Positions 31,550 through 43,207 of a stretch of DNA of 64,000 nucleotides are shown here, piece by piece. The translations under genes were made by a program, and so were the position numbers. The stretch is taken from the IMG/VR virus record IMGVR_UViG_3300028486_000080, positions 80,199 through 144,198 of that record; one strand, given 5' to 3'. Position 1 is the first letter of the stretch. The number at the start of each line of letters is the position of its first letter. The DNA comes from a virus. Its lineage: Duplodnaviria; Heunggongvirae; Uroviricota; Caudoviricetes. Below the pieces are notes generated by a model. The model did no database searches. It was not told where the DNA came from and saw only the letters and a program-made list of their open reading frames with translations.

Positions 31550-32494
31550 ATGGCACGAACGTTCGATGACCGCTACGACTCGTTGGGTCGGGAAACCAAG
31601 GCGCGCGGTCTGGGTTGGAAGATTGGCGTGGGTTTAGCCATCTTCCTGGGACTCCTCACCGCATGGCTCAGCTACTACACGGTGGATCAGGGCGATGTTG
31701 GCATCGTCAAGCGCTGGGGTGAGCGGATCGCCATCAGCGATCCGGGGCTCCACTTCAAGGTTCCGTGGATCGATACGGTCGATGAGATCGAAGTCCGCAA
31801 CCGCAAGATCACTAAGGAAATGGACTCGTCGTCGTCTGACCCGATGTCTCTGCCCATCGTCGTGACGATGAACTGGGAAGTGAACAAGAAAGACATTGGT
31901 GCCCTTTATGACGAGTATGGCGGGCTAACGCAGTTCGAGGAACGCATCCTCATTCCGCGTTTTCTTTCCGGCTCTAAGACGGCGGCATCACGCTTCTCCG
32001 TCAATGATCTGGTGCTCAATCGCGACAAGCTCCAGACCGAGATCGGCAAGGTGCTCGATGAGCGTATGCCAACCAACGTCATGGGCGTAACCGGTGTGTC
32101 GGTGGAAGACGTTCTCTTCCCGCCTGACTACATGAAGCAGATCAAGGACAAGCAGATTGCTCGTGAAGCTGCCTTGACTGAGAAGTTCACCCTGGAGCAG
32201 CAGAAGTACAAGTCGCAGCAGATCACCCAGACTGCCGTATCGCAGGCGAATGCTGATCGCGCCAAGGCGGACGCCGAAGCTTACGGTATTACCAAGAAGG
32301 GTAATGCTGAGATCGCTGTCATCGAAGCCAAGGGTAAGGCTATTGCAGCGAACCCGTTGATCATCCAATATACGAATGCATCCAACTGGAGCGGCAAGCT
32401 GCCCGATACATTCATCGGCGGCGAACAGGCAGGTAACATCCTGTTCAACTTGCCTTCCCAGAATGGTGCCCAGCGCGCGGCAACTACGCCTTAG
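31550..32494 (+). CDS. SPFH/band-7 (prohibitin/HflC-like) membrane protein
   Basis: N-terminal TM helix then YYTVDQGDVGIVKRWGERIAISDPGLHFKVPWIDTV band-7 core followed by a coiled-coil region. Confidence 0.75.
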   Translation: MARTFDDRYDSLGRETKARGLGWKIGVGLAIFLGLLTAWLSYYTVDQGDVGIVKRWGERIAISDPGLHFKVPWIDTVDEIEVRNRKITKEMDSSSSDPMSLPIVVTMNWEVNKKDIGALYDEYGGLTQFEERILIPRFLSGSKTAASRFSVNDLVLNRDKLQTEIGKVLDERMPTNVMGVTGVSVEDVLFPPDYMKQIKDKQIAREAALTEKFTLEQQKYKSQQITQTAVSQANADRAKADAEAYGITKKGNAEIAVIEAKGKAIAANPLIIQYTNASNWSGKLPDTFIGGEQAGNILFNLPSQNGAQRAATTP

Positions 32495-32560: not shown

Positions 32561-32765
32561 TGTCATCTATTCTGGCAGCAGCGAAAGCTAGCCCTACAGA
32601 AAAGTAACCCAGCCCCGCCGCGGTAACCACGTGAGCCATAATAAGGTCCGATGTCTCTCGGCTGAGACCACCGGCACGGCTCGTGTGTAGAAAGTGCTCC
32701 ATAGCTCGCACCACCACATCATCAGCGCCTAGAATTACGCTGCGAACGGCATTCTCGCTGATCAT
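32547..32765 (-). CDS. hypothetical small protein
   Basis: 72 aa ORF with ATGA overlap to the CAP gene. Confidence 0.3.
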   Translation of the reverse strand: MISENAVRSVILGADDVVVRAMEHFLHTSRAGGLSRETSDLIMAHVVTAAGLGYFSVGLAFAAARIDDKSPT

Positions 32766-33292
32766 TGCTCACTCCCTAGAACCATAGCCCAGAAATGCTT
32801 GTACTTCGTGTTCAGCTTATCGACGCTAGCTATGCCGATTTCTGTCACTTTGGGGTTGAGGAGGTTGGCGTTGTGCCCAGGGCTTGCTTTCCACTCAGCG
32901 AACGCCTGTTCCCAAGAGTCCTGTCCACCAGCCACGTTCTCAGCGACGACGGTCCACTTGTAGTCGTAGGCTTCGACGCGCTCCTTTACCGAAGCATACT
33001 TGCCGTCAAATGGGTTTAGGAAATACCCCTGGTCATGCCCGACGTAATCATTATCAGCCATATACGTGGCTTGGAACCGCGCCGCCGCGGTGAGGCGCTT
33101 GCTCCACTCCAGTGGCTTCAGCCCCTTCGAAACGCGATAGTCGTTCACGTCCTTAAGACGAAGCTCCGATTCCGTCAGTGTCTTCTCCACCGTTGGGCTG
33201 GAGTCGCTAGGCGAAAGACCCACGACGTTCTTCACGCTGTCACACGATGCGAGGCTCAGCGTCATCACTAGGGGGAAGATGATCTCTTTCAT
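32762..33292 (-). CDS. CAP/SCP/PR1-domain lipoprotein
   Basis: lipobox LSLASC after the signal peptide; CAP motifs GHDQGY..NPFDGKY and GHNANLLNPKVTEIGIA. Confidence 0.6.
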   Translation of the reverse strand: MKEIIFPLVMTLSLASCDSVKNVVGLSPSDSSPTVEKTLTESELRLKDVNDYRVSKGLKPLEWSKRLTAAARFQATYMADNDYVGHDQGYFLNPFDGKYASVKERVEAYDYKWTVVAENVAGGQDSWEQAFAEWKASPGHNANLLNPKVTEIGIASVDKLNTKYKHFWAMVLGSEQ

Positions 33293-33308: not shown

Positions 33309-33524
33309 TTAGATTCCCAACTCAGGGATATTTGACCATCCCCACTGGTTAGCTATTTCAGCACCAATCTGCACAATATGATTTCGGGCTTCCATGTGAT
33401 AGAACCGTTGGTATCCATCAGCAGCATTGTTGGCTAGCTCTTCTTGATCCTTTGCGGCTGCGACGATGGCATCCAGCACAGCTTGCTCAGCATCCTCGCG
33501 ATCCATGTCAGTACTTTGCTCCAT
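33309..33524 (-). CDS. hypothetical small acidic protein
   Basis: internal ATG chosen to limit overlap with the upstream gene. Confidence 0.3.
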   Translation of the reverse strand: MEQSTDMDREDAEQAVLDAIVAAAKDQEELANNAADGYQRFYHMEARNHIVQIGAEIANQWGWSNIPELGI

Positions 33525-34173
33525 GCTTGACGGGACGAGTCTTGTTGAAGGCGAACTTGGCATCCATGATCGGCATGTAGTCGATACCCAGCAGACGGCA
33601 CACCTCAATGGTCGCGGTCAATGCCGCAGCTAGGTCAAGATGGTACTGTGGGCACTGAATAATATATGAGCTTCCCAAGTCATCCCAGACTTCGAACTCC
33701 GTCTGCACACTTTTGCGGTGAGCGTCGAGCGCCTTTGAGATAAGGTGGTGCAGGACCATCAGCTTATCGTTGAGGCTGCCGTATTCCACTCCGTCGAGGA
33801 AGCCATGCACTGTCATTCCATAGACGTGGTTCATGATCTCATCGAAGTCAGCCGTGACGTAGGCGCCGCAGGCGTCGTAGAGCCGGATGATGGTATCGAC
33901 GATCTCGACATCGACTGCCTTATATTGTGGCAGCTTGTCGTCCTGCCCATTGGTCCAGGAAGCCTCATAGGCTTCATCCACCTCGCCATGGATCAGAGCA
34001 ATCACCTGACCGAAATCCCGCTCTGGCTCCCCGTCGAGCGGCCAGAAACCCTTAGCCTTGTTCGCCGCATGAACGGTCCAGGCTATATCTGCATGACACA
34101 TATGTGTCAGGAATCCCTCATTGGTCGCGATAGCTTCCTCAAGCTCAGCACGTTGCTCACGGATATCGGTCAT
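33508..34173 (-). CDS. MazG-like / all-alpha NTP pyrophosphohydrolase domain protein
   Basis: VIALIHGEVDEAYEA segment resembles the MazG-type EExxE metal-binding helix; weak. Confidence 0.35.
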   Translation of the reverse strand: MTDIREQRAELEEAIATNEGFLTHMCHADIAWTVHAANKAKGFWPLDGEPERDFGQVIALIHGEVDEAYEASWTNGQDDKLPQYKAVDVEIVDTIIRLYDACGAYVTADFDEIMNHVYGMTVHGFLDGVEYGSLNDKLMVLHHLISKALDAHRKSVQTEFEVWDDLGSSYIIQCPQYHLDLAAALTATIEVCRLLGIDYMPIMDAKFAFNKTRPVKHGAKY

Positions 34174-34270
34174 CTAGGTAATCTTTCCTGTTAACGTTAA
34201 CTTGTATCCTAGACCTAGCAACCCCACATATGTTCTGTCAACCTTAATTTTCATATACGGGGACAAATAA

Positions 34271-34945
34271 ATGGCGCGACCTGCGGGACTTCAAGTCAAG
34301 CTCCACCCTAACCTAACTCCCACTCAGAAGGAAGTTCTCCGCTACCCAGACTATCACTTGATCTTGGAGGGTCCGGCTGGTACCTCTAAGACCTACTTAG
34401 CCCTCGCTAGGGGACTTTCACTCTTAAAGAACGATGACGTAGAGAAGATCATCATCATACGCTCAGCCGTAGAGACTCGATCCATCGGCTTTCTACCGGG
34501 CGGCAGAGACGAAAAAATGGAAGCTTATGCAGCGCCATATATCCACCTGATCAGTGAGTTATCCCCCCAACGTAATTACGCCGCATTGATGAACACCAAA
34601 CTCTTGGAGTTCCATTCAACATCATTCTTGCGTGGCTGTACGTTCGATGATGCCTTCATCATCTGTGATGAGTATCAGAACATGAACGCGCACGAATTGG
34701 AGACCATAGTCACTCGTGTAGGTGAGCGCTCGCACTTGTGCTTATGCGGCGACGGTGATCAATCAGACTTACGCGGCGACGAAGCCCGAGAGCACAAGCT
34801 GGTTCTAGAAATCCTCACGCAGATGGAGGAATTCTACTATGTCAAGTTTGGTGTTGAGGATATCGTGCGCTCTGACTTCGTGCGCCGGTACTACGAGGTA
34901 AAAGAGCAGGTATACAAGGGTGGCGTCAAGAGAACTCTGGCTTGA
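34271..34945 (+). CDS. phoH: PhoH-like ATPase
   Basis: Walker A ILEGPAGTSKTYLA, Walker B FIICDEYQN; size and motif spacing typical of phage PhoH. Confidence 0.85.
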   Translation: MARPAGLQVKLHPNLTPTQKEVLRYPDYHLILEGPAGTSKTYLALARGLSLLKNDDVEKIIIIRSAVETRSIGFLPGGRDEKMEAYAAPYIHLISELSPQRNYAALMNTKLLEFHSTSFLRGCTFDDAFIICDEYQNMNAHELETIVTRVGERSHLCLCGDGDQSDLRGDEAREHKLVLEILTQMEEFYYVKFGVEDIVRSDFVRRYYEVKEQVYKGGVKRTLA

Positions 34946-35001
34946 CCATCTTGTATCCGACGTAGATTTGAGCCACGGCGATTGAGGCACCTAACGCCAC
35001 C

Positions 35002-35451
35002 TCAGTCCCGTGGCTCGAAAAGAAAGATATCGCAGTCAACATCAATAAGCTCCTGTATGATAAGAGGCTTGACGGTATCCCAAGAGAGACCGCCTAGCCC
35101 GCATCCTAGGGCAGGGATCGCAATGGAAGTGATCTTTTCTCCTTCTATGGCGCGACGCAACGCGGGCAACGCGGAAATAACATACTCCAGCTTCGAAGGC
35201 AGCCGGGGGGTGCTCTTCGTAGGGAAGCTGATGATGAATTGCGGAATAGTCAAGCCTGTGGCATGCACGGCGACTGTGCCTGTCTTTATGTCCCCGCCGC
35301 GACAAAGCTCGCGGTATTCGTGGAAGTATTCAGGAAAGCGCTCCTTGAAAGCGAGAGCGATGCCGCCGCCCATCACGCCTTCACAGTTGACTGCGTTAAC
35401 GAGGCACTGACACCCAGAGGCAAATAAGTCACCGTTAGTTGCGATTAACAT
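35002..35451 (-). CDS. macro domain (ADP-ribose binding/processing) protein
   Basis: LVNAVNCEGVMGGGIALAFKERFPE (macro N-x6-GGG-V motif) and IAIPALGCGLGG distal motif; start at ATG 35451. Confidence 0.7.
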   Translation of the reverse strand: MLIATNGDLFASGCQCLVNAVNCEGVMGGGIALAFKERFPEYFHEYRELCRGGDIKTGTVAVHATGLTIPQFIISFPTKSTPRLPSKLEYVISALPALRRAIEGEKITSIAIPALGCGLGGLSWDTVKPLIIQELIDVDCDIFLFEPRD

Positions 35452-35680
35452 GGGCGTCCTCTGCTTTATCACACCACTCAGCGAAAGCGCGCCCGAGCGC
35501 GGCATCATCCATCACTTCCAGCACTGTCTTAGCCATCGGTGCTGATAGCGGGTAGCTTTCACCGATACGTTCGGCGGCGAACGCTTGAATGAGAGGATTG
35601 TTATAGTCCCGACACGTCTTGCCTAGATCGATAGCCTCAGCGTCAGTTAGATTTCCCGCCCGTTGCTGTGTCGTCTGCAT
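35435..35680 (-). CDS. hypothetical small protein
   Basis: 81 aa from internal ATG of ORF 35435..35788. Confidence 0.3.
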   Translation of the reverse strand: MQTTQQRAGNLTDAEAIDLGKTCRDYNNPLIQAFAAERIGESYPLSAPMAKTVLEVMDDAALGRAFAEWCDKAEDAHVNRN

Positions 35681-35873
35681 TATCTTTAGCCCATCCCATG
35701 ATTTTGTACTTGAGGAAATCCCCAATGCGAGCGGCGATGCCGCAATGGATTTTATTGCGCCCGTAGGTGGTGACGTGCTCGCCCTCACCTACCTTGCGCG
35801 CGACGATGACGACTTGATCGTAGTCGTAGAGCTTCGCGATCTCACGCGCCGCCTTGATTGGAATCCGCTTCAT
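35643..35873 (-). CDS. hypothetical small basic protein
   Basis: 76 aa ORF. Confidence 0.3.
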   Translation of the reverse strand: MKRIPIKAAREIAKLYDYDQVVIVARKVGEGEHVTTYGRNKIHCGIAARIGDFLKYKIMGWAKDNADDTATGGKSN

Positions 35874-36246
35874 AATCGTTCTCTTCGAATACCCACTTCT
35901 CCGAGCATAGATCGCAGAGGCTATGCCAACCCTCCCAGGTGTGGATCACCGGAGCATCGGGAGCAGCCTCCCACAGCTTTTGCAGCCACTCAACCGCAGT
36001 CATCCATGTATCGCCACGTTGCGCTGCGCACTGTTCGAGAATCTGAGCGATGGTGGGGATGTGATAGATGCCGAAGGTCTCGACCTGTGGCTCATTGATG
36101 TTGACGCCCACCTTCTCGAAGATCGCTTCGATATGGACAAGCTCATCGGTGAAGATGTTCCACCATTGCTCAGGGGTTTGGATTGACACAGACTGGTTCA
36201 CCCTTCTCATTGACGGTCTGAACGGAGCCAATCGGGCAGTGGACAT
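35842..36246 (-). CDS. hypothetical protein
   Basis: 134 aa ORF. Confidence 0.4.
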   Translation of the reverse strand: MSTARLAPFRPSMRRVNQSVSIQTPEQWWNIFTDELVHIEAIFEKVGVNINEPQVETFGIYHIPTIAQILEQCAAQRGDTWMTAVEWLQKLWEAAPDAPVIHTWEGWHSLCDLCSEKWVFEENDYEADSNQGGA

Positions 36247-36323
36247 TACCCGGCTCTAGCAGACCCAAGATACCGATAGTGAGCGTGACGGCAAGCGCGA
36301 TCAGCGCTAGCGTTAAAATCAAT

Positions 36324-36896
36324 CTAGGAAGAGGCATTCATCCTCGCTACGAGTTCATCCATATGAAAGGGGTAGTAATCGTTCTTTTCGACTGAGACGT
36401 TGAGGTAGCGGGGGTCGGGCGCTCCGTTGAGCATCACATCCTTCTCATGGATGTGTCCGTGGATGCACCACTTGTGTCCGTACCCCAGGCTCATCGGGTG
36501 CCAGGGGAAGTGGCACATCACGAAGGGCATCTTCCAAGGCTCAAGATCATGCCCCACGCGGCACGGCACGACCTTATAAAAGTGGCGTCGATATGCCAAT
36601 ACATCTAAGCCGTCATGGTTACCAGGGATGAGCACCTTCCGACCATTAAGGCGGGGCATGGTCTCATCCATAGCCTCTTCACCTTTCGAGCCGTAACCGA
36701 AGCCGAGATCACCTAGCATGTAAACTTTATCGTTAGGCTTAACACGGGCGTTCCAGCGCTCGATCATCACCTCATCCATTTCCTCTACACAGGAGAAGCC
36801 GGGGCGGATAAGGTTACCGTCATTGCCCTTAAAGGTTAATATCTTGGCGTGGCGGTAGTGTTGATCGGAGGTTACCCAGGTATCGTGCATCACCAA
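36324..36896 (-). CDS. calcineurin-like metallophosphoesterase
   Basis: motif I DTWVTSDQHYRH, motif II GDLGF, motif III GNHD and histidine-rich HGHIH block. Confidence 0.7.
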   Translation of the reverse strand: MVMHDTWVTSDQHYRHAKILTFKGNDGNLIRPGFSCVEEMDEVMIERWNARVKPNDKVYMLGDLGFGYGSKGEEAMDETMPRLNGRKVLIPGNHDGLDVLAYRRHFYKVVPCRVGHDLEPWKMPFVMCHFPWHPMSLGYGHKWCIHGHIHEKDVMLNGAPDPRYLNVSVEKNDYYPFHMDELVARMNASS

Positions 36897-37114
36897 ATCT
36901 CATATGGGGTGGCGTCAAACTTCTCTCCACTACAGCCGCACGTGACCACGAGGATCAAGCCGAGCGATGTAGGTGAAAAGCTCCAGGTGAACTGCCCGCC
37001 GATGGCGCCTGTATAGGACAGACGCTTGCCCTCTAAGAACGCGGCAAGCTCTTTGGCAAGAGCGTCCGTCGTGAAGTAATCGCACACAGGTGTCTTGACG
37101 GTCACGGGCTTCAA
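36890..37114 (-). CDS. hypothetical small protein
   Basis: 74 aa ORF. Confidence 0.3.
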   Translation of the reverse strand: MKPVTVKTPVCDYFTTDALAKELAAFLEGKRLSYTGAIGGQFTWSFSPTSLGLILVVTCGCSGEKFDATPYEIW

Positions 37115-37147
37115 GGAACCACCTCCAACTCAAGCTGATAGTATAGT

Positions 37148-37345
37148 TTAGCCGCCGCCATAGTTCACCCCCGCGCACCTGGGACATACATCGCCCGCTT
37201 GAGATAGCATCACCCACCCATGAAGGTAGGCGTAACGCCTAACGTCACGGATACCCTCGGGGACGAACAGGATCGCCGGGCAGTAGGTGCACTTAATCTT
37301 TTCACACATACCGGCACCCATAAAGGTTACTCGGGAGCTTGTCAA
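37148..37345 (-). CDS. small zinc-ribbon protein
   Basis: CTYC...CPRC Cys4. Confidence 0.3.
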   Translation of the reverse strand: MTSSRVTFMGAGMCEKIKCTYCPAILFVPEGIRDVRRYAYLHGWVMLSQAGDVCPRCAGVNYGGG

Positions 37346-37446: not shown

Positions 37447-37854
37447 TTAGAGATCGTCCGCGTTGAGGATGCGATTGATCTCGGTATCGGCGGCGAGTTT
37501 CGCCTTCATGACGTTGTGGGCACCGACGATGGCAGCCTTCGCAGCGTCAGGATGGAGAACCGTGCTCTTGTTGCCCTGGGTCACTACCATAGGGGCTTCG
37601 ATATTGAAATTGCGGAGGAAGTCGTTGTAGTCGAGCGTGCCGCCGCTGATCGACTTCTTGGCACCCCAGGTACCCTTGACGCGGGACTTGAGGCTCTTGG
37701 GCTTCGCCTGCTTGGGGACGAAATCTTTGCCCGTGACGGACTTGATCGCGGCAAGCTCCTCTGCGGACTTACGTCCGCGCTTGGAGATAGCGCGCTTAAA
37801 GACCTTGCGCGTGCGCGCGTCAGCTTTCTTCAGGTTTTCTGCGAGGACATTCAT
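37447..37854 (-). CDS. lysine-rich hypothetical protein
   Basis: ORF 37447..38043 trimmed to ATG 37854 because the upstream part overlaps a tRNA gene. Confidence 0.45.
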   Translation of the reverse strand: MNVLAENLKKADARTRKVFKRAISKRGRKSAEELAAIKSVTGKDFVPKQAKPKSLKSRVKGTWGAKKSISGGTLDYNDFLRNFNIEAPMVVTQGNKSTVLHPDAAKAAIVGAHNVMKAKLAADTEINRILNADDL

Positions 37855-37922
37855 TAAGCTACTCCTACTGGTTAACAAATGCAGATGCCATATGATATGC
37901 AATTGCCTTGCCAATTTCAAAT

Positions 37923-37999
37923 TGGCACTAGCGAGTGGGTTCGAACCACTGTATCCCGATCCACAATCGAGCGCTCTCACCCATTGAGCTACGCTAGCA
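37923..37999 (-). tRNA. tRNA-His(GTG)
   Basis: minus-strand cloverleaf: acceptor gctagcg/cgctagt, anticodon arm ctcga-ttGTGga-tcggg, T-arm agtgg-gttcgaa-ccact, encoded CCA. Confidence 0.6.
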
Positions 38000-38001
38000 T
38001 T

Positions 38002-38085
38002 ATTGGTGCTCCAGGAGGGACTCGAACCCCCACGCCTAGGCACGTGGTCCTAAGCCACGCGTGTCTACCGTTTCACCACTGGAGC
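38002..38085 (-). tRNA. tRNA-Leu(TAG)
   Basis: acceptor gctccag pairs with ctggagc; anticodon loop cttagga; long variable arm; T-loop ttcgagt. Confidence 0.55.
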
Positions 38086-38087
38086 GG

Positions 38088-38161
38088 TGCCCTACCCCGG
38101 GCTCGAACCGGGAAAACTCGAATTTTAAGTCCGATACGTATACCAATTCCGTCAGTAGGGC
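38088..38161 (-). tRNA. tRNA, anticodon loop cttaaaa (TAA) in a short-variable-arm body
   Basis: acceptor gccctac/gtagggc, T-arm cccgg-ttcgagc-ccggg; class I length but a Leu-type anticodon, so identity is uncertain. Confidence 0.4.
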
Positions 38162-38185
38162 TGTTAGATTGTTACACTTTCTTAA

Positions 38186-38270
38186 TGGTGCGCCCGGTAG
38201 GACTTGAACCTACACGCCTTGCGACATTCCCTTTTGAGGAGAACGCGTCTACCAATTTCGCCACGAACGC
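38186..38270 (-). tRNA. tRNA-Leu(CAA)
   Basis: acceptor gcgttcg/cgggcgc (two G-U), D-loop aattggtaga, anticodon arm ttctc-ctCAAaa-gggaa, long variable arm, T-arm gtagg-ttcaagt-cctac, CCA encoded. Confidence 0.55.
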
Positions 38271-38271
38271 A

Positions 38272-38349
38272 TGGTGCCGATAGGAGGACTCGAACCTCCA
38301 TTTGCCCAGACTCTCGATCTGGTGCGTCTACCAATTTCGCCATATCGGC
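38272..38349 (-). tRNA. tRNA, anticodon unassigned (GAG-like loop with C33)
   Basis: acceptor gccgata/tatcggc, T-arm ggagg-ttcgagt-cctcc; anticodon stem-loop ambiguous. Confidence 0.4.
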
Positions 38350-38361
38350 TTTTGTAAGTTT

Positions 38362-38448
38362 TGGAGGACCGAGTGAGATTCGAACTCACGTTGGGCTTTC
38401 GCCTTCCGATTAAAAGTCGGGTGCCATCGTCCGCTCGGCCACCGGTCC
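38362..38448 (-). tRNA. tRNA, class II (Ser-like D-arm), anticodon unclear
   Basis: D-arm tggccgagcgg resembles tRNA-Ser; T-arm gtgag-ttcgaat-ctcac; anticodon loop reads cttttaa. Confidence 0.45.
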
Positions 38449-38633
38449 TGAAGACCTAGCCGTCGAGCGGTTAGGTCAGTCGATGGACGAGCTTTTTAAG
38501 TCGTAAGGCATGCAACGACAATCGCGCGGCGTGTGCGCCAGCGATTAAATGTCGGAAGATGTTCGTTGCGTTTGTCATGACGGGATATATAAGGTATCTA
38601 TATGCGTATGTCAACAGGTAAAGGTAAATAAAA

Positions 38634-38918
38634 ATGTCTGCGAATATTGCTCTGCTACCGCTCTCCACTGATGAGATTTTCAAACTTGTCAGGCGGCAGA
38701 TCAAAGCCAAAAAGCTGAAAACCGCAACGCTATCCACGAGAGCCGGATGCTTCTATTTCTACCTGCGCCTCGACAAAGACACGACCATCACTGTTGCTAT
38801 GTATCTAGATGGGCGGATGTCGATGTCGTACACCTCCCGCCTCGCTGGCAAGGAGCATGTCATCTGGTTCAGCAAACAGGAGCGTCAGGCATTGGCGCCA
38901 TCGTTGGTGCAACTGTGA
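38634..38918 (+). CDS. hypothetical small protein between tRNA clusters
   Basis: 94 aa ORF; weak. Confidence 0.25.
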   Translation: MSANIALLPLSTDEIFKLVRRQIKAKKLKTATLSTRAGCFYFYLRLDKDTTITVAMYLDGRMSMSYTSRLAGKEHVIWFSKQERQALAPSLVQL

Positions 38919-39056
38919 AGAAGCTGTGGCGGTGGATCACGTCTTGGTGGCGACCGAAGCCGCAGTACACTCAGATTGAATGGCAGGTTGATCTCGTAGT
39001 CATATGCGGCAAAGGCGCGGCGCGCATCTGGGGCATCGAAACCTCCGAAGAGGAAG

Positions 39057-39130
39057 TGGAGCGAATGAAGGGAATCGAACCCTTGTAACCTGATTGGAAG
39101 TCAGGGACTCTACCATTGAGCTACATCCGC
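39057..39130 (-). tRNA. tRNA-Gly(TCC)
   Basis: anticodon arm cctga-ctTCCaa-tcagg; T-arm aaggg-ttcgatt-ccctt; acceptor gcggatg/cattcgc. Confidence 0.6.
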
Positions 39131-39499
39131 ATTGTCTCGTTACGCTCTAGTATCTCCATAAACTCTACCGCCTTGTCCCGCTTGATCCGTAGATAAGGGA
39201 TCAGTTGGGGCAGCAGCGCCAGCAAGTCCAACTGCTTCGTGACATGCCACGTCAGCATCGGCTTTCTGTTATCCGGCACCTTCTTGTTACGGACGCGACC
39301 GCAGCCCGTAATCTCTTGGCACCACTCTATACTCCCGAAGTGCGTGTTGTGCACTTGAAGGCACAGGGCTCGATATCTTTTTCCACCGCGACCAGTGACC
39401 GTGTGGATTGAGAAGTTTCCCTCACCGTCAATGTAACCGGCGATCCAAGCCGCGTCGGTCTTTCGGAGGCGCTTTACAGTGCAAGCTCTAAGTACACGA
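39121..39499 (-). CDS. LAGLIDADG homing endonuclease (single-motif type), start uncertain
   Basis: AWIAGYIDGEGNFSI LAGLIDADG motif; the 195-aa ORF in the track runs through two tRNA genes, and no in-frame ATG lies between the motif and the tRNA at 39507. Confidence 0.5.
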
Positions 39500-39506
39500 G
39501 CGATGG

Positions 39507-39580
39507 TGGTTCTCCTGCGAGGATTCGAACCTCGATCTTCAGCTTCAAAGACTGCTATCCTACCGTTAGACGAAAGGAGA
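39507..39580 (-). tRNA. tRNA, anticodon unassigned
   Basis: T-arm cgagg-attcgaa-cctcg on the minus strand with complementary acceptor ends. Confidence 0.4.
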
Positions 39581-39581
39581 G

Positions 39582-39655
39582 TGGTTCTCGAAGCCTGACT
39601 CGAACAAGCATTCACCGCTCCAGAGGCGGGTGTCCTACCATTAGACGATTCGAGA
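39582..39655 (-). tRNA. tRNA, possibly Gln(CTG)
   Basis: acceptor tctcgaa/ttcgaga; anticodon loop ctctgga with a 4-bp stem. Confidence 0.4.
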
Positions 39656-39663
39656 ATGGACGC

Positions 39664-39739
39664 TGGAGCATAAGGTGGGACTCGAACCCACAGCCTCTTC
39701 GTTGGCAACGAAGCGCTCTAACCCTTGAGCTACAAATGC
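39664..39739 (-). tRNA. tRNA-Gly(GCC) with U5-U68 and U6-U67 acceptor mismatches
   Basis: D-arm gctc-aagggtta-gagc, anticodon arm cttcg-ttGCCaa-cgaag, T-arm gtggg-ttcgagt-cccac, CCA encoded; acceptor gcatttg vs cttatgc. Confidence 0.5.
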
Positions 39740-39740
39740 G

Positions 39741-40067
39741 TTAGCGTTGTCGTCCAGTCCAGTAAGCGTCCATGTTCTCTAGTGCCATCCGCAGATGGCG
39801 CTCTCCTTCAGGGTTTGCCGAGTGGATATTCCACCGGTAGTGTTTGCCAAATCCGTTACGCGCCCAAAGTTCAAGCGTATCGGCTACGATCTGAGAAGTG
39901 TTGTCTCCTCCGAGATCGTGATCGAAGGAGATACGATAGATGTCATAGTCAGGGTTCAACAGCGCTTGTAGTGCTTCCTCCGCCGTGCGCGCGATGATCC
40001 AACGCACGTAGTTGCCGGTTGGCGGCATACGCTCATCATCGATCCACAAGGCGCAGTAGTAACCCAT
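39741..40067 (-). CDS. hypothetical protein
   Basis: 108 aa ORF between tRNA genes; family not identified. Confidence 0.4.
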   Translation of the reverse strand: MGYYCALWIDDERMPPTGNYVRWIIARTAEEALQALLNPDYDIYRISFDHDLGGDNTSQIVADTLELWARNGFGKHYRWNIHSANPEGERHLRMALENMDAYWTGRQR

Positions 40068-40080
40068 CGTCTAAATTCCC

Positions 40081-40160
40081 TGGCGAGCATACCGGGACTC
40101 GAACCCGGTTTTCAAGGTGGACAGCCAAGCGTAATAACCCATATACGATACGCCCCAAGC
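40081..40160 (-). tRNA. tRNA-like element (atypical, possibly pseudo-tRNA)
   Basis: T-arm ccggg-actcgaa-cccgg and CCA present but no consistent anticodon arm found. Confidence 0.25.
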
Positions 40161-40163
40161 CAA

Positions 40164-40238
40164 TGGAGCCGGATACAGGACTCGAACCCGTGCAGCCGCC
40201 TTACAAGAGCGGTGCTCTACCTGTTGAGCTAATCCGGC
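40164..40238 (-). tRNA. tRNA-Thr(TGT)
   Basis: acceptor gccggat/atccggc; anticodon arm ccgct-ctTGTaa-ggcgg; D-arm tagctcaacaggtagagc. Confidence 0.6.
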
Positions 40239-40415: not shown

Positions 40416-41786
40416 TCAAGAGCTAAGTGCTGCATTTTTTCTAATAGTCGAAAAGCTCTCGGGGTAGCGCACATAAGGGGCTTCCCATAACACTTCGAAC
40501 TGATGATGCTGCTGGACTCCGCGCTTGGACTTCTTACCTTTGTCAGTCACCGGCTCTTTGAAAACATCGACAAGCTCGCCGTTGATATGCGCCGCTGACG
40601 CCTTCATCGCATACTTGAACGTATCGCGGTTGACCTTCTGAAGAAGCCCACCACCCATACCAAACGCGATGTTGTCGATGGACCATCCATTGTTCATGAG
40701 CACATCCATCATATCGACAATCGTATCCGGCTCCATGCCGTCGCCTTGAATGATACGCAGATAGGGTGGCAGAACTTTGTAGCCTTTGCCGTTGGTCGTG
40801 AAACCGAACCGCTGCGCGAGGCTTTCGAGCACAGCGAGCACCACTTCATTCGGACGCCCACTGTCGGGACGAATGACAAGCGTACCCCCGCGCGACATGA
40901 CCTCATGACGTAGGCGGTCGCCCCAAATGTTTGAGACGGCATTGTAGATATCGTAAGAGTCCGACACGACTGAGAACAACGCCCCAGGCTTGGAGAATTG
41001 CTCAATCATATTCCGGTAGGCATCAACTTCGCGGTTGCGTCCCCACGAGGTGATGGTGCTGTGTTCCGCGGCGGGTATGGAGAACCCAGGCATGTCGATA
41101 TCGGAGTATGCTGCATAGTACTTGTCGAAGGCTTCCAGCGCCTCCATTGTGTCGGTGCCTTGGAAGTTGATCAGATGTGCGAGCCCACCCAGACCAGCGC
41201 TTTCGCTAGAGGATGCCCCACGTGCTCCGAAGTCGTGGAGCTTGTAGTCCAGACCATGAAGCGTATCGCATGTTAGCGCCATGTAGCGCTGGATGCGTTT
41301 TTTGATCTCGCGTGAGACAGTTGCGACAGTGGATGGATACCAAATTGCGCGCAACAGCGCGGTCTCCACGAAGCTCGTCAGCCAAGGCAGGCGATCATCA
41401 GTGTTCACGACCTGAATTTGTGGCGTGCCGATAGGTACAGGCAAGCCGCTGGGGAGAGATTGAATACGCAGCGGCAAGAATCCGCCGTGTTTGGTGACGA
41501 TGTAAATCCAGTCTTCGAGGTTGAAAGGAACCCCATGACGACGACATATGTCGCTGGCACGCGCAACATCGTCAGCGGTGATGGGATTACGCAGATAGTC
41601 CAGCGCAAACTGCACCGCACCGAAATGAACGATTTCGACGGGTCCATATTTGTCTTGATCGAACCAGCGCTTGGCTTCATTGCTCAAGCCGCGCGCTTCG
41701 ATGTAGGACCACACCTTCGTAGTCCCTGGAGGGTATTGAAGGTAGTGGCTCATCTTGTAGCTGTCGGTATGAAGAATCGGGTTCAT
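40416..41786 (-). CDS. nadV: nicotinamide phosphoribosyltransferase (NadV/NAMPT)
   Basis: N-terminus MNPILHTDSYKMSHYLQYPPGTT is the NAMPT signature; 456 aa; adjacent NMNAT gene. Confidence 0.85.
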   Translation of the reverse strand: MNPILHTDSYKMSHYLQYPPGTTKVWSYIEARGLSNEAKRWFDQDKYGPVEIVHFGAVQFALDYLRNPITADDVARASDICRRHGVPFNLEDWIYIVTKHGGFLPLRIQSLPSGLPVPIGTPQIQVVNTDDRLPWLTSFVETALLRAIWYPSTVATVSREIKKRIQRYMALTCDTLHGLDYKLHDFGARGASSSESAGLGGLAHLINFQGTDTMEALEAFDKYYAAYSDIDMPGFSIPAAEHSTITSWGRNREVDAYRNMIEQFSKPGALFSVVSDSYDIYNAVSNIWGDRLRHEVMSRGGTLVIRPDSGRPNEVVLAVLESLAQRFGFTTNGKGYKVLPPYLRIIQGDGMEPDTIVDMMDVLMNNGWSIDNIAFGMGGGLLQKVNRDTFKYAMKASAAHINGELVDVFKEPVTDKGKKSKRGVQQHHQFEVLWEAPYVRYPESFSTIRKNAALSS

Positions 41787-42109
41787 TTTATAGCTCCTAA
41801 GAAGCTCTCAATGAATGGGATGATGTCCGCATCATGATCGACGTGCGGGCGAACTACTCTGATGAGCAGCGCAGCCTTTTTGAGGTAATCTTGCTGCGAA
41901 TGCTCTTGCCACGTAGGGACACCATTTTTGATGAAGTAGAACCAACCACATCCGTCCGTATGGTTCCACCGACACAAACGGTCGTGCAGCACGATAGCTA
42001 CTTGCTGATCTAGCGTCAGCGCTGTTAGATGCTTCTGTTCCTCGATGAGTTTCGCCTTCTCGGCTTCAAGCTCAGCGATCTTCTTATCGATGCTGGATAC
42101 ACTGTTCAT
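41783..42109 (-). CDS. hypothetical protein between nadV and nadM
   Basis: 108 aa, N-terminal coiled coil; ATGA overlaps on both sides. Confidence 0.45.
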   Translation of the reverse strand: MNSVSSIDKKIAELEAEKAKLIEEQKHLTALTLDQQVAIVLHDRLCRWNHTDGCGWFYFIKNGVPTWQEHSQQDYLKKAALLIRVVRPHVDHDADIIPFIESFLGAIK

Positions 42110-43125
42110 ATCCCCACCATCACTTCCAGGATTGCGTAATGATCTTCGAAGAGCATGTCACGGTTGCGGCGTATCTCATCGAATGGCTTCCAGAAAGCTC
42201 GCTTGGCGTCGTCTCCACCTTTGACCTTTGGTAGAGACTCGCGCTCTTCGAGCTTGAACAGATACGCCTCGGTAATCGTGCGCCCACGTTCTGAGCGCAT
42301 CGGATCATCGAACGTCAACTGCTTGGTGATTGACCCTTCTAGAACCCGATCAGGGACTTTGATCTTAGTCTCTTCCTTGAGTTCTCGGAGCACTGCCTGC
42401 TTCAGAGTCTCAGTCTGATTGACGAAACCTCCAGGCAATGCCCACAAACCCCGCCCTGGAGAGGATCGGCGCTGCACCAGGAGGATGTGACCTGACTGGA
42501 CCACTACGGCATCTACCGTCTGGAATGTGGGCTTGTACGGGGCGACCGACCACTCTTCCTTATAGTCCTTGATAACGCGGAATTCTTCACGTAGCCAGCC
42601 GACGACAGGTTCAGCCGCCTTTCGGAAGGCTATGAAGTGTGCGTCGTTTATGAAGTCCTCGCGATAGACGCCCACCTCAAGCCAACGCCCACGGAACATG
42701 GTGCCGCTGAAGTCAGCAACCTCCTGCACCTCGACGTAATCCCATTGCGGGAACTTATGGAGGTAGTAGGTGGTGTGATCCTTATCGAGTCCGACGATAC
42801 CGATCTTGATTGGATCGGCGCTGAACTTTTTGTGCGTGATCGAATGGACGACATCCTGAAGTGATGCCACCCAACGATCATCGTTGTAGGTGTGGTCGTG
42901 CTGTACACCGAAGTGGATGCGCGGATCATTCTCCGGGAAGCACGCCTTGATCATGGCGATTCGCTCCGCGCTGGAGAACGGATTTCGGGTAGATCGGGAT
43001 TTCTGATGGGAGCCCAGAACGAAGATCAGGTTCTTCGATTTCTTCAGGGCTTCGAGGGCAACGTGATGGTGCCCTTTATGGTAGGGCTGGAATCGCCCCA
43101 CGAAAACGAGGTAGTCGTATTCCAT
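42106..43125 (-). CDS. natV: bifunctional NMN adenylyltransferase / Nudix ADP-ribose pyrophosphatase (NadM-Nudix, NatV-like)
   Basis: (H/T)xGH nucleotidyltransferase motif FVGRFQPYHKGH; Nudix box GGFVNQTETLKQAVLRELKEETKI in C-terminal half. Confidence 0.85.
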   Translation of the reverse strand: MEYDYLVFVGRFQPYHKGHHHVALEALKKSKNLIFVLGSHQKSRSTRNPFSSAERIAMIKACFPENDPRIHFGVQHDHTYNDDRWVASLQDVVHSITHKKFSADPIKIGIVGLDKDHTTYYLHKFPQWDYVEVQEVADFSGTMFRGRWLEVGVYREDFINDAHFIAFRKAAEPVVGWLREEFRVIKDYKEEWSVAPYKPTFQTVDAVVVQSGHILLVQRRSSPGRGLWALPGGFVNQTETLKQAVLRELKEETKIKVPDRVLEGSITKQLTFDDPMRSERGRTITEAYLFKLEERESLPKVKGGDDAKRAFWKPFDEIRRNRDMLFEDHYAILEVMVGI

Positions 43126-43207
43126 AGATAGCTCCTATCTATGAGGGTGGAACCCTCCCGTCTATCGGGTGGGCATGTAGTCTAATGTAGTATATCTTCA
43201 GCGGATG

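What the first reader, a model, noticed from the sequence alone, without database searches (positions are those of the whole stretch)
33508..37345. Candidate anti-defence / auxiliary island: MazG-like, PhoH, macro domain, small unknown ORFs, metallophosphoesterase
Within 4 kb there is a MazG-like pyrophosphohydrolase, a PhoH ATPase and a macro domain protein. There are also four small ORFs of unknown function (35435..36246, 36890..37345) and a calcineurin-like phosphoesterase. Macro domains remove ADP-ribose marks or hydrolyse ADP-ribose derivatives. MazG-like enzymes in phages degrade alarmone or modified nucleotides. Together with the adjacent NAD+ salvage genes, this suggests a locus that counters nucleotide-signal-based or NAD+-based host immunity. 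Possible signals include cyclic oligonucleotide or ADPR-derived messengers; a metallophosphoesterase could cleave cyclic nucleotide signals, though this is speculative. The unknown small ORFs are the most likely place for undescribed inhibitors.
Basis: inference. Interest (0 to 1): 0.6.

Follow-up and report, generated by a model that had tools for sequence, protein, structure and literature searches.

The report
Phage accessory block with orphan DarG macrodomain
This stretch of a large uncultured phage carries a stand-alone copy of the bacterial DarG antitoxin domain, which probably strips ADP-ribose off phage DNA, next to a known NAD+-rebuilding gene pair; both are known kinds of counter-defence and the other genes are common phage accessory genes.

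Summary
The window is part of a ~165-kb uncultured phage, probably of an alphaproteobacterium. A sister phage at 40-73% protein identity keeps the same gene order.

The informative gene is the macro gene (35002-35451, minus strand). It is an orphan DarG-type macrodomain:
- Its best matches are Mtb and Thermus DarG structures and the NCBIfam and PADLOC DarG models, over the macro half only.
- The Asn and Lys residues at the active-site positions of DarG and AdfM are kept.
- There is no DarT-binding half and no DarT gene.

This matches AdfM of PhiKZ (2026), which removes DarT2 ADP-ribose from DNA. Nampt plus Nmnat-Nudix, 5 kb away, match NARP2, a known countermeasure to NAD+ depletion.

The MazG-like, PhoH and metallophosphoesterase genes have intact motifs. 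They are common phage genes that are not linked to each other outside this lineage. Nothing supports cleavage of cyclic-nucleotide or ADPR-derived signals.

Of the small ORFs, one 76-aa protein belongs to an unusually conserved unnamed family and is an insertion here. One 115-aa protein belongs to a family found fused to DnaA-C domains or near SSB.

Verdict: a new member of known kinds, of moderate to low interest.

The parts
33309..33506 (-). 65-aa ORF of unknown function, directly downstream of the MazG-like gene
   Evidence: Gene called in the identical Logan contig. No family hit. The sister phage L002 has an unrelated 144-aa ORF at this position.
33508..34173 (-). Divergent MazG-like all-alpha NTP pyrophosphohydrolase (221 aa) with a ~70-aa insertion between the two halves of the fold
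   Evidence: PHROG pyrophosphatase families at 3.5e-17, 1.9e-16 and 2e-11, matching residues 29-104 and 176-221 separately. E64/E67/E90/D93 are invariant. Remote phage NTP-PPase relatives at 25-31% identity. No Pfam or PDB sequence hit. Only 4 homologues in 5.8 G proteins.
34271..34945 (+). PhoH-like P-loop ATPase (224 aa), transcribed against its neighbours
   Evidence: Pfam PF02562 8.7e-45; phrog_170 4.8e-65; 71% identical in L002, with the same inverted orientation.
35002..35451 (-). Orphan DarG-type macrodomain (149 aa), the AdfM-like candidate anti-DarT DNA ADP-ribosylglycohydrolase
   Evidence: PDB 5m3i (annotated 'RNase III inhibitor'; from memory the Mtb DarG macrodomain) 1.5e-32; 5m31 (annotated 'Appr-1-p processing domain protein'; from memory Thermus aquaticus DarG) 9e-28; next is O-acetyl-ADP-ribose deacetylase 1 / C6orf130 (TARG1) at 6.5e-8. 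NCBIfam antitoxin_DarG 1.7e-54 on profile positions 3-149 of 338. PADLOC DarG 1.4e-56 on 1-146 of 329. PhiKZ AdfM 31% identity, E 3e-19. N22, GVMGxG, FPTK(K79) and GxGxGGL conserved. 44% and 40% identity to Mtb and Taq DarG, against 35% and 31% for AdfM.
35435..35680 (-). 81-aa orphan ORF (w81); coding status unverified
   Evidence: Called in the Logan contig. No Pfam, PHROG, NCBIfam or PADLOC hit. No tblastn hit in INPHARED. Absent from L002. Overlaps w76 by 38 nt and the macro gene by 17 nt.
35643..35873 (-). 76-aa member of a very conserved, unnamed small phage protein family (w76); an insertion relative to the sister phage
   Evidence: phrog_38816 1.4e-29. 327 homologue clusters with E <= 0.001; the 120 listed are 61-80% identical to w76 and none has Pfam. 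AF2 pLDDT 85.5, alpha-beta-beta-alpha fold. No significant structural match. Absent from L002. Present in 10 INPHARED records of unrelated phages.
35842..36189 (-). 115-aa helical protein (w115) with the conserved C-terminal motif W.AAPD.P.IH.WPGW..LCDLCSE.WVF
36170..36337 (-). 55-aa peptide with an N-terminal hydrophobic segment and two C-terminal Cys
   Evidence: The sequence and its positional counterpart l50 in L002 share the pattern TM...C-x5-V-x-V-x-E-x-G-x3-C.
36324..36890 (-). Calcineurin-like metallophosphoesterase (188 aa) of the aq_1665 / phrog_547 subfamily
   Evidence: Pfam PF00149 5.1e-6, above cut-off. phrog_547 4.2e-48. All five MPE motifs are invariant: D9xH11, G60D61, G90NHD93, H127, G145HxH148. 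Profile against PDB: 1xm7 2.1e-23, GpdQ 6e-4. 1433 INPHARED records carry relatives.
36890..37114 (-). 74-aa ORF (w74) whose stop overlaps the MPE start
   Evidence: phrog_26220 2.4e-7. 51% identical to l86 in L002. The only INPHARED relatives are in Sinorhizobium phiM12/phiN3-type phages, ~90-100 kb from their MPE gene.
37148..37345 (-). Zn-ribbon mini-protein (CxxC...CxxC); 57 aa from the ATG at 37321, 65 aa from the TTG at 37345
   Evidence: Sequence. 52% identical to an uncalled ORF in L002 with both CxxC pairs kept.
37447..37854 (-). 135-aa Lys-rich ORF, probable first gene of the co-directional run
   Evidence: Called in the Logan contig. 34% identical to l130 in L002. No Pfam hit.
37892..37920 (-). 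Sigma-70-like promoter match (TTGAAA-17-TATCAT) just downstream of tRNA-His and upstream of the 135-aa ORF
   Evidence: Consensus scan, 10 of 12 matches. The number of such sites in the region is not above the shuffles, so this is weak.
39741..40067 (-). cREC (cyclic-phosphate-processing receiver-like) domain protein inside the tRNA array
   Evidence: Pfam PF20274 2.7e-16. 76% identical in L002.
40416..41786 (-). Nicotinamide phosphoribosyltransferase (Nampt/NadV), first enzyme of NARP2
   Evidence: PF18127 NAMPT_N + PF04095 NAPRTase. 67% identical in L002.
42106..43125 (-). Nmnat-Nudix (NadM-type) bifunctional enzyme, second enzyme of NARP2
   Evidence: PF01467 CTP_transf_like + PF00293 NUDIX. 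73% identical in L002.

Best explanation
The region is a conserved accessory block of a large (~165 kb) uncultured phage, probably infecting an alphaproteobacterium. It contains two counter-defence functions of known kinds, mixed with ordinary auxiliary genes.

(1) The 149-aa macro protein is a stand-alone copy of the catalytic half of the bacterial antitoxin DarG. Inferred mechanism: when a host DarT2-type toxin ADP-ribosylates thymidines in single-stranded phage DNA and blocks replication or packaging, this enzyme hydrolyses the ADP-ribose-DNA bond and restores the DNA. It would use the conserved Asn22 and Lys79 pocket. It does not need to bind DarT, because the DarT-binding half is missing.

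(2) Nampt and Nmnat-Nudix, 5-8 kb away, rebuild NAD+ from nicotinamide and PRPP (NARP2). That offsets NAD+-depleting defences.

The MazG-like pyrophosphohydrolase, PhoH ATPase and aq_1665-type metallophosphoesterase are probably active enzymes of nucleotide or nucleic-acid metabolism. Their presence here reflects lineage history rather than a shared pathway.

Shown: gene content, family assignments, conserved catalytic residues, absence of DarT, synteny in one sister phage, lack of linkage elsewhere. Inferred: substrate (ADPr-DNA), timing, and any phenotype.
For: - Specific to the DarG subfamily. Best PDB matches are 5m3i and 5m31 (from memory the Mtb and Thermus aquaticus DarG macrodomains; the tool labels them 'RNase III inhibitor' and 'Appr-1-p processing domain protein') at 115.7 and 100.1 bits, against 35.7 bits for OARD1/C6orf130 (TARG1). 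NCBIfam antitoxin_DarG gives 185 bits against 41 bits for the next family. PADLOC DarG 1.4e-56.
- Only the macro half of both DarG models is matched.
- N22, K79 and both Gly-rich loops are conserved with Mtb and Taq DarG and with PhiKZ AdfM. The protein is closer to bona fide DarG (44% and 40%) than the experimentally validated AdfM is (35% and 31%).
- AdfM removes DarT2 ADP-ribose from DNA and rescues DarT2 toxicity (PMC13309987).
- No DarT: tblastn with a DarT2 gives a best E of 0.23, and there is no DarT Pfam in the 20-kb gene table.
- Nampt + Nmnat-Nudix domain composition equals KVP40 NARP2.
- The block is conserved in sister phage L002.
- Orphan DarG-like macro genes are common in phages: 775 INPHARED records.
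Against: - No biochemical or genetic data exist for this protein.
- The host and its defence repertoire are unknown, so exposure to DarT is assumed.
- Macrodomains are versatile. Activity on protein-linked ADPr, O-acetyl-ADPr or ADPR-1''-phosphate cannot be excluded from sequence.
- One Gly-rich loop reads GCGLGGL where DarG and AdfM have G-x-G-N-GGL.
- The window also carries RNA-repair-type genes (cREC, RlaP, a PNKP-type phosphatase), which offers a different context for a macro, MPE and MazG trio.
- Synteny with a single sister phage cannot separate function from descent.
Confidence: 0.6

Rival explanations
1. RNA (tRNA) repair and ADPr by-product clean-up network. The phage repairs tRNAs cut by host anticodon nucleases. 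cREC, the metallophosphoesterase and a PNKP-type phosphatase heal 2',3'-cyclic or 2'-phosphate ends. The macro domain and Nudix dispose of ADPr>p / ADPR-1''-P made by a KptA- or sirtuin-type step. MazG is an associated pyrophosphatase. This follows the model Iyer et al. proposed for V5- and Mydo-type phages.
For: - cREC_REC 2.7e-16 inside the tRNA array.
- RlaP 'RNA repair pathway' nucleotidyltransferase 5.6e-55 between tRNA-Arg genes.
- A HAD_PNKP hit at 3.9e-24.
- 30 tRNAs and a tmRNA.
- Iyer et al. 2022 describe neighbourhoods of sirtuin + tRNA ligase + cREC + kinase + MazG +/- calcineurin-like phosphoesterase.
- In phage Moby an MPE homologue lies ~0.9 kb from a T4-like polynucleotide kinase and near a tRNA. 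In phiN3 it lies next to a 'polyA polymerase'.
Against: - No sirtuin, KptA/Tpt1, ART or RNA ligase appeared among the window ORFs of 100 aa or more that were scanned, within the reported lists.
- The macro domain is DarG-type. Matches to chains named 'ADP-ribose 1''-phosphate phosphatase' are weak and partial (E 3e-4, residues 13-55).
- The MazG relatives sit in replication modules of small siphophages, not V5-type loci.
- Other MPE homologues sit next to helicase and exonuclease genes or RNR.
Confidence: 0.15
2. This is a signal-degrading island in which the metallophosphoesterase and/or the MazG-like enzyme destroy cyclic-oligonucleotide, cADPR-type or alarmone messengers, the macro domain hydrolyses ADPR-derived signals, and the small ORFs are sponges or inhibitors.
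For: - A phage MazG-like enzyme (Atd1) depletes (p)ppGpp and protects against TIR-STING and retron-TIR (bioRxiv 10.1101/2022.06.09.495361).
- Iyer et al. argue that phage Macro, Nudix and NADAR domains mainly target soluble ADPr derivatives.
- The MPE's weak second-best solved relative is the phosphodiesterase GpdQ.
- All catalytic motifs are intact.
Against: - No ORF hits any family that I know as an anti-signal family (2H/Acb1, MBL/Apyc1, Tad2-type DUF) in Pfam or PHROGs. PADLOC returns only the DarG match for the macro gene, plus weak helicase-type hits to PhoH and one weak hit to the MPE.
- The macro domain is of the DNA-acting DarG type.
- MPE, MazG and macro relatives are not co-located in other phages.
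- The w115 family associates with DnaA-C, DNA polymerase and SSB rather than defence contexts.
Confidence: 0.1
3. Adpp-like role. The macro protein is an ADPR-1''-phosphate phosphatase that supports NAD+ reconstitution against RES-type (aRES) NAD+ phosphorolysis, as in NARP1-AP operons.
For: - Macro genes accompany 15% of NARP1 operons, and one (Adpp of Vibrio phage Gary) converts ADPR-1P to ADPR (bioRxiv 10.64898/2026.01.28.702374).
- Here a macro gene lies 5 kb from NAD+ salvage genes.
Against: - Adpp's closest characterised homologue is yeast Poa1p. This protein's closest are the DarG macrodomains, with only weak partial matches to ADPR-1''-P phosphatases.
- The salvage genes here are NARP2, which does not use ADPR and, according to the same authors, already bypasses aRES.
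- No Adps-type (PRPS-like) family appears in the gene table or the reported family lists.
- The macro gene is 9 genes and a tRNA array away from the salvage genes, not within 2 genes.
Confidence: 0.07

Closest known systems
AdfM (PhiKZ gp104), the chimallivirus orphan DarG2-like macrodomain (Morgan et al., Cell Rep 2026, PMC13309987)
   Same: It is a stand-alone macro protein of ~150-160 aa encoded by a large phage. It is homologous (31% identity, E 3e-19). It shares the catalytic Asn (N23 in AdfM, N22 here), the FPTK lysine and the Gly-rich loops. It has no DarT partner and no DarT-binding domain.
   Different: Sequence identity is only ~30%, and this protein is nearer to bacterial DarG than AdfM is. 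No phage-nucleus genes were looked for, so nuclear import cannot be claimed. Activity is untested.
Bacterial DarG antitoxin of DarTG2 (Thermus aquaticus and M. tuberculosis; PDB 5m31, 5m3e, 5m3i)
   Same: The macro half is 40-44% identical, with active-site residues kept. It scores highest against the DarG models.
   Different: It lacks the C-terminal ~190 residues (matches cover profile positions 3-149 of 338 and 1-146 of 329) and falls below the full-length NCBIfam cut-off (185 against 250 bits). There is no adjacent DarT. It is therefore not a toxin-antitoxin module.
NARP2 (Vibrio phage KVP40 Nampt + Nmnat; Osterman et al., bioRxiv 10.1101/2024.02.11.579819)
   Same: The same two enzymes with the same domain composition, separated by one small gene, in a large phage.
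   Different: Not assayed. Sequence relationship to the KVP40 proteins was not measured here.
Phage NAD+/ADPr-network and RNA-repair neighbourhoods described by Iyer, Burroughs, Anantharaman and Aravind 2022 (PMC9503650)
   Same: Macro, Nudix, NadV/NadM, cREC, MazG and a calcineurin-like phosphoesterase co-occur in a large phage near tRNA genes.
   Different: The sirtuin and tRNA ligase that anchor their RNA-repair neighbourhoods were not found in the window.
Atd1 (phage MazG-like (p)ppGpp pyrophosphatase) and A10ZJ24 gp48 / Bxb1 gp47 (mycobacteriophage MPE)
   Same: Same enzyme superfamilies as the MazG-like and MPE genes here.
   Different: The MPE has no detectable pairwise similarity to Bxb1 gp47. 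The MazG-like protein is a divergent member with a ~70-aa insertion, and its relation to Atd1 was not tested.

Membership tests
DarG-type macrodomain / AdfM-like orphan anti-DarT factor | Macro fold that scores best against DarG-specific models and structures | tested here: met
   NCBIfam NF048014 1.7e-54; PADLOC DarG 1.4e-56; PDB 5m3i 1.5e-32 and 5m31 9e-28, against 6.5e-8 for OARD1/C6orf130 (TARG1).
DarG-type macrodomain / AdfM-like orphan anti-DarT factor | Catalytic residues: the Asn mutated in AdfM (N23A), and the Lys of the FPTK motif (the DarG K80 position, numbering recalled from memory) | tested here: met
   N22 and K79 are invariant across window, L002, Mtb DarG, Taq DarG and PhiKZ gp104.
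DarG-type macrodomain / AdfM-like orphan anti-DarT factor | Hydrolysis of ADP-ribose from DarT2-modified ssDNA and rescue of DarT2 toxicity | not testable with these tools
   Needs an in vitro assay and co-expression, as in PMC13309987.
Complete DarTG toxin-antitoxin system | Full-length DarG with the C-terminal DarT-binding domain | tested here: not met
   The protein is 149 aa. Only profile positions 3-149 of 338 and 1-146 of 329 are matched, and the score of 185 bits is below the 250-bit full-length cut-off.
Complete DarTG toxin-antitoxin system | Adjacent darT gene | tested here: not met
   The neighbours are an 81-aa ORF and PhoH. tblastn with P. aeruginosa DarT2 against the whole window gives a best E of 0.23. 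There is no DarT Pfam in the 20-kb gene table.
NARP2 NAD+ reconstitution pathway | Nampt (NAMPT_N + NAPRTase) together with Nmnat in the same phage | tested here: met
   PF18127 + PF04095 at 40416-41786 and PF01467 + PF00293 at 42106-43125; definition.
NARP2 NAD+ reconstitution pathway | NAD+ synthesis during infection and rescue from NAD+-depleting systems | not testable with these tools
   Experimental.
Adpp / NARP1-AP | Poa1p-like macro domain within two genes of an Adps-Namat operon | tested here: not met
   The closest relatives are DarG. ADPR-1''-P phosphatases match only at 3e-4 over residues 13-55. The salvage genes are NARP2-type and 9 genes away, and no Adps-like (PRPS) family was reported.
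MazG / all-alpha NTP pyrophosphohydrolase | E-x2-E ... E-x2-D metal-binding motif on a helical core | tested here: met
   E64, E67, E90 and D93 are invariant. PHROG pyrophosphatase families hit at down to 3.5e-17.
MazG / all-alpha NTP pyrophosphohydrolase | Match to the curated Pfam MazG models or to solved MazG structures by sequence | tested here: not met
   No Pfam family even at E <= 10. No PDB hit with the sequence or the profile. It is therefore filed as a divergent relative only.
Calcineurin-like metallophosphoesterase | Five motifs DxH, GD, GNH(D/E), H, GHxH, and a Pfam PF00149 score above cut-off | tested here: met
   Invariant D9/H11, G60/D61, G90-D93, H127 and G145/H146/H148. PF00149 27.5 bits against 21.5.
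Mycobacteriophage gp48 / Bxb1 gp47 MPE (anti-defence nuclease / RDF) | Sequence membership of that subfamily | tested here: not met
   BLASTP against Bxb1 gp47 gives a best E of 3.2.
Known anti-signalling enzymes and sponges (Acb1 2H, Apyc1 MBL, Tad1/Tad2, Acb2) | Domain-level match of any ORF in 33.3-37.9 kb | tested here: not met
   No such family appears in the Pfam or PHROG output, and the NCBIfam and PADLOC scans added none. No dedicated anti-defence library was available, so the test is limited to these libraries.
Sirtuin/KptA-centred phage RNA-repair neighbourhood (Iyer et al. 2022) | A sirtuin or KptA plus an RNA ligase next to cREC, MazG and a phosphoesterase | tested here: inconclusive
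   cREC, MazG-like, MPE, RlaP and HAD_PNKP are present. No sirtuin, KptA or ligase family is in the window lists. About 100 kb of the genome lies outside the window.

The most novel reading that the evidence does not exclude
The 76-aa protein w76 (35643-35873) may be an undescribed broad-spectrum inhibitor of a conserved host or defence component. Its ~62-residue alpha-beta-beta-alpha core stays 60-80% identical across hundreds of metagenomic clusters and 47-65% identical across the few unrelated cultured proteobacterial phages that carry it. It has no Pfam family and no structural neighbour. In this phage it is a lineage-specific insertion, together with the orphan w81, directly upstream of the anti-DarT macro gene.
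Probability: 0.12. Interest if true: 0.6.

Novelty: new member of a known kind. Interest (0 to 1): 0.3.

Why it matters
The finding extends the recently defined AdfM class (orphan DarG macrodomains as anti-DarT factors) from chimalliviruses to an unrelated large phage, probably of an alphaproteobacterium. The new protein is closer to bacterial DarG than the validated AdfM is. Homologous macro genes occur in 775 INPHARED records (not checked individually for a DarT partner or a C-terminal domain), which suggests that reversal of DNA ADP-ribosylation is a widespread phage strategy.

The pairing with NARP2 in one conserved block illustrates stacking of NAD+-related countermeasures. In practical terms the gene is a ready candidate for a DarT2 rescue assay.

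The rest of the block warns against reading co-location of common auxiliary genes (MazG, PhoH, MPE) as a functional island.

Tried and rejected
- Nucleotide searches against INPHARED. Megablast found nothing. blastn found only two ~110-150-nt patches. No cultured close relative exists.
- The search for related loci with the macro protein in viral contigs found no relative.
- Exact-sequence look-ups of two other window ORFs failed, probably because of start-codon differences. The rest of the window was therefore annotated only through batch Pfam scans that do not say which ORF hit.
- The MazG-like sequence and a 4-sequence profile against PDB gave nothing.
- w115 in the word-indexed protein search found only itself. 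The exhaustive phmmer search was needed.
- Idea that PhoH is a mobile cassette. The 9-mer CTTGTATCC occurs only twice in the window, flanking PhoH. It is absent from the sister phage, which has the same inverted PhoH, and 3 of 100 shuffles reach two copies. Rejected as chance.
- Direct and inverted repeat scan of 33.2-37.95 kb found only short two-copy matches.
- The promoter and terminator scan was not above shuffles.
- Rfam found no RNA family inside the finding; it found only tRNAs and a tmRNA elsewhere.
- Idea that the MPE is like the anti-defence MPE gp48. Rejected, because there is no similarity to Bxb1 gp47.
- Idea that w74 is a conserved MPE partner. Rejected, because in phiM12 and phiN3 the two genes are ~90-100 kb apart.

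Full report
**What the window is.** The 64-kb window has about 53% G+C. It carries 30 tRNA genes and a two-piece alphaproteobacterial-type tmRNA. It has no nucleotide-level relative among 50,697 phage records. A 1053-aa primase-like protein is about 30% identical to proteins of Sphingobium phage Lacusarx and of Erythrobacter phages. The same sequence occurs on Logan and JGI contigs of up to 165,361 bp. So this is a large uncultured phage, probably of an alphaproteobacterium.

**Checking the observation.** The ORF list and the gene calls on the identical Logan contig agree on the following layout.

| Coordinates | Strand | Product |
|---|---|---|
| 37447-37854 | - | 135-aa Lys-rich ORF |
| 37148-37321/37345 | - | Zn-ribbon mini-protein |
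| 36890-37114 | - | 74 aa (w74) |
| 36324-36890 | - | metallophosphoesterase (MPE) |
| 36170-36337 | - | 55-aa TM peptide |
| 35842-36189 | - | 115 aa (w115) |
| 35643-35873 | - | 76 aa (w76) |
| 35435-35680 | - | 81 aa (w81) |
| 35002-35451 | - | macro |
| 34271-34945 | + | PhoH |
| 33508-34173 | - | MazG-like |
| 33309-33506 | - | 65 aa |

Next come a CAP-domain lipoprotein-like gene and a Band_7 gene. From w74 to the macro gene every junction overlaps by 1-38 nt.

- Pfam confirms PhoH (8.7e-45), Macro (2.7e-20) and Metallophos (above its cut-off).
- The MazG-like gene has no Pfam hit, but it matches three PHROG pyrophosphatase families and keeps an invariant E-x2-E...E-x2-D motif.
- Nampt and Nmnat-Nudix lie at 40.4-43.1 kb, beyond a 12-tRNA array.

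There are six small ORFs rather than four, and PhoH is transcribed against its neighbours.

**The macro gene is the informative part.** It is not a generic macro domain.
- Against solved structures, its best matches are PDB chains 5m3i (E 1.5e-32) and 5m31 (9e-28). From memory these are the DarG macrodomains of M. tuberculosis and Thermus aquaticus; the tool labels them 'RNase III inhibitor' and 'Appr-1-p processing domain protein'. OARD1/C6orf130 (TARG1) follows far behind at 6.5e-8, and chains named 'ADP-ribose 1''-phosphate phosphatase' match only partially at 3e-4.
- The NCBIfam equivalog model for antitoxin DarG scores 185 bits, against 41 bits for the next family. Only profile positions 3-149 of 338 are matched.
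- The PADLOC DarG model gives 1.4e-56 on positions 1-146 of 329.
- The protein is therefore the catalytic half of DarG without the half that binds the toxin.
- No DarT is present. The flanking genes are too small or are PhoH. tblastn of a P. aeruginosa DarT2 against the whole window gives nothing (best E 0.23). The precomputed Pfam table for 20 kb shows no DarT.
- In an alignment with both bacterial DarG macrodomains, the sister-phage protein and PhiKZ gp104, the following are invariant: the Asn mutated in gp104 (N23A; N22 here), the Lys of the FPTK motif (K79 here) and both glycine-rich loops.

**Comparison with what is known about such proteins.** DarT ADP-ribosylates thymidine in ssDNA, and DarTG defends against phage. 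The published phage countermeasures read here are:
- AdfB of ICP1. The same paper also mentions AdfA of RB69, T4 and T6.
- Orphan antitoxin-like enzymes against DarTG1 (PMC11825919; only the abstract was read).
- AdfM, most recently. This is PhiKZ gp104, an orphan DarG2-like macrodomain. It removes DarT2-installed ADP-ribose from DNA in vitro, rescues DarT2 toxicity, and is needed for chimallivirus growth on DarTG2 hosts (PMC13309987).

The window protein is homologous to AdfM (31% identity, E 3e-19). It is closer to the characterised bacterial DarG domains (44% and 40%) than AdfM itself is (35% and 31%). Relatives occur in 775 INPHARED records. In E. coli phage PJ16 the orphan copy sits beside a Dam methylase and the DNA polymerase. 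Thermus phage phiMa carries what looks like a complete DarT-DarG pair. I therefore file the gene as a new member of the AdfM / orphan-DarG kind. Its substrate is inferred, not shown.

**NAD+ salvage genes.** Nampt (NAMPT_N + NAPRTase) and the Nmnat-Nudix fusion have the composition of the KVP40 pathway that Osterman et al. named NARP2. That pathway overcomes NAD+-depleting systems. Iyer et al. had already catalogued NadV/NadM with Macro, Nudix and cREC domains in large phages. The idea of an NAD+/ADPr-centred counter-defence region is therefore established, and this locus is an instance of it.

**Is the block a functional island?** A sister phage (L002, a JGI contig of 167.7 kb) keeps the same order. 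Protein identities are:

| Gene | Identity in L002 |
|---|---|
| Nmnat-Nudix | 73% |
| Nampt | 67% |
| cREC | 76% |
| MPE | 66% |
| w74 | 51% |
| Zn-ribbon | 52% |
| w115 | 40% |
| macro | 51% |
| PhoH | 71% |
| MazG-like | 50% |
| CAP | 67% |
| Band_7 | 69% |

At this distance whole-genome synteny is expected, so this does not prove a shared pathway. Outside the lineage the linkage dissolves.
- The best macro relatives and the best MPE relatives are in different phages.
- MPE homologues sit next to varied genes: a poly(A)-polymerase-like gene and near a Band_7 gene in phiN3, RNR and an endonuclease in S-CBS4, a tRNA and T4-like polynucleotide kinase in Moby, and helicase and exonuclease genes in Bacillus phage Riley.
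- MazG relatives sit in small siphophages.
- w74 relatives in phiM12 and phiN3 are about 90-100 kb from their MPE.

**The enzymes other than macro.**
- MPE. It has all five metallophosphoesterase motifs. Its profile matches the uncharacterised Aquifex aq_1665 structure (2.1e-23) and, weakly, the phosphodiesterase GpdQ (6e-4). It shows no similarity to Bxb1 gp47, a member of the family of mycobacteriophage A10ZJ24 gp48, the one phage MPE with a reported anti-defence phenotype. Diesterase chemistry is plausible. A signalling-nucleotide substrate is pure speculation.
- MazG-like. It is a divergent member with an insertion of about 70 residues. Only four homologues exist in 5.8 billion proteins. 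A phage MazG-like enzyme (Atd1) has been reported to deplete (p)ppGpp and blunt TIR effectors. Whether that applies here was not testable.
- PhoH. It is a standard phage PhoH.

**The small ORFs.**
- w76 is the most striking. 327 clusters match it with E <= 0.001. The 120 listed are 61-80% identical over a core of about 62 residues, and none has a Pfam family.
  - The model is confident, with an alpha-beta-beta-alpha fold (pLDDT 85.5), and has no significant structural neighbour.
  - Among cultured phages it is scattered: Roseobacter RDJL, Pseudomonas Jeremy and Touem01, Sinorhizobium phiN3, Xanthomonas jumbo phages and Erythrobacter XM05. It always lies among runs of small hypothetical genes.
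  - It and the orphan w81 are absent from the sister phage, so they form an insertion between w115 and the macro gene.
- w55 and the Zn-ribbon are conserved with the sister phage.
- w81 has no relative anywhere I could search.
- None of these ORFs hit Pfam, PHROG or PADLOC families that I recognise as known inhibitors.

**Rival reading.** The window also carries cREC, an RlaP 'RNA repair pathway' nucleotidyltransferase between tRNA-Arg genes and a PNKP-type phosphatase hit. Iyer et al. describe phage RNA-repair neighbourhoods that combine cREC, MazG and a calcineurin-like phosphoesterase with a sirtuin and a tRNA ligase. So the MPE and MazG pair, and less likely the macro gene, could belong to tRNA repair or ADPr by-product clean-up. 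Two points count against this. No sirtuin, KptA or ligase family appeared in the window, and the macro domain is DarG-type rather than Poa1p-type. The same argument disfavours an Adpp-like role in NAD+ reconstitution.

**Verdict.** The locus contains counter-defence genes, but of already known kinds: an AdfM-like orphan DarG macrodomain and NARP2. The target of the macro gene is most likely ADP-ribosylated DNA rather than nucleotide messengers. The remaining enzymes are common auxiliary genes without demonstrated linkage. The most interesting loose end is the ultra-conserved small protein w76.

Noticed in passing
window 37923-53442 (tRNAs); tmRNA at 50199-50551 (-): There are 30 tRNA genes by Rfam (29 by ARAGORN) in arrays on the minus strand. 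There is also a permuted, two-piece alphaproteobacterial-type tmRNA with tag peptide ANDNSPMVEDFRIAA. This points to an alphaproteobacterial host.
   Followed up: partly
window 39121-39708 (-): A LAGLIDADG homing-endonuclease-like ORF (Pfam 2.4e-4, just below the cut-off) is inserted between tRNA-Gly(tcc) and the tRNA-Gln pair. The 5' part of the mechanical ORF overlaps the tRNA-Gln genes, so the true start must be internal.
   Followed up: partly
window 52330-53142 (-); 39741-40067 (-); one ORF within 886-24125: RNA-repair-type genes are scattered among the tRNAs: RlaP nucleotidyltransferase (5.6e-55), a cREC domain protein (2.7e-16), and a HAD_PNKP phosphatase-domain hit (3.9e-24) whose ORF was not pinned down.
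   Followed up: partly
window 32762-33292 (-) and 31550-32494 (+): A CAP/SCP-domain protein has a lipoprotein-like N-terminus (…LSLASC…) and lies next to a Band_7 (stomatin/prohibitin) protein. Both are conserved in the sister phage. Sinorhizobium phage phiN3 also has its MPE about 1.5 kb from a Band_7 gene.
   Followed up: no
window 886-24125 (ORFs not individually assigned): The batch Pfam scan shows an Ion_trans/Ion_trans_2 ion-channel protein (1.6e-30). It also shows TadE/Tad/VWA hits (Flp-pilus-assembly-like), DUF1153, DUF3846 and a terminase RNaseH-like domain. These are unusual cargo for a phage.
   Followed up: no
window 34201-34209 and 34950-34958 (+): The 9-mer CTTGTATCC occurs only twice in the window, flanking the inverted PhoH gene. 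It is not found at the same place in the sister phage, so it is probably chance.
   Followed up: yes
L016 (Thermus phage phiMa MH673674) 3318-5074: A 205-aa ORF is directly followed by a 357-aa protein whose N-terminus is 42% identical to the window macro protein. This looks like a complete DarT-DarG pair carried by a phage.
   Followed up: no
INPHARED hits H29-H38 (Streptomyces phages Quantum, Kradal, Satis and others): In these ~185-kb Streptomyces phages the DarG-like macro match lies under, or next to, a gene annotated as ADP-ribosyltransferase. This may be a phage-borne ART-macro pair.
   Followed up: no
window 45706-46215 (-): A T5orf172/MUG113 (GIY-YIG-like) domain is fused to an HTH_3 domain, within the second tRNA cluster.
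   Followed up: no
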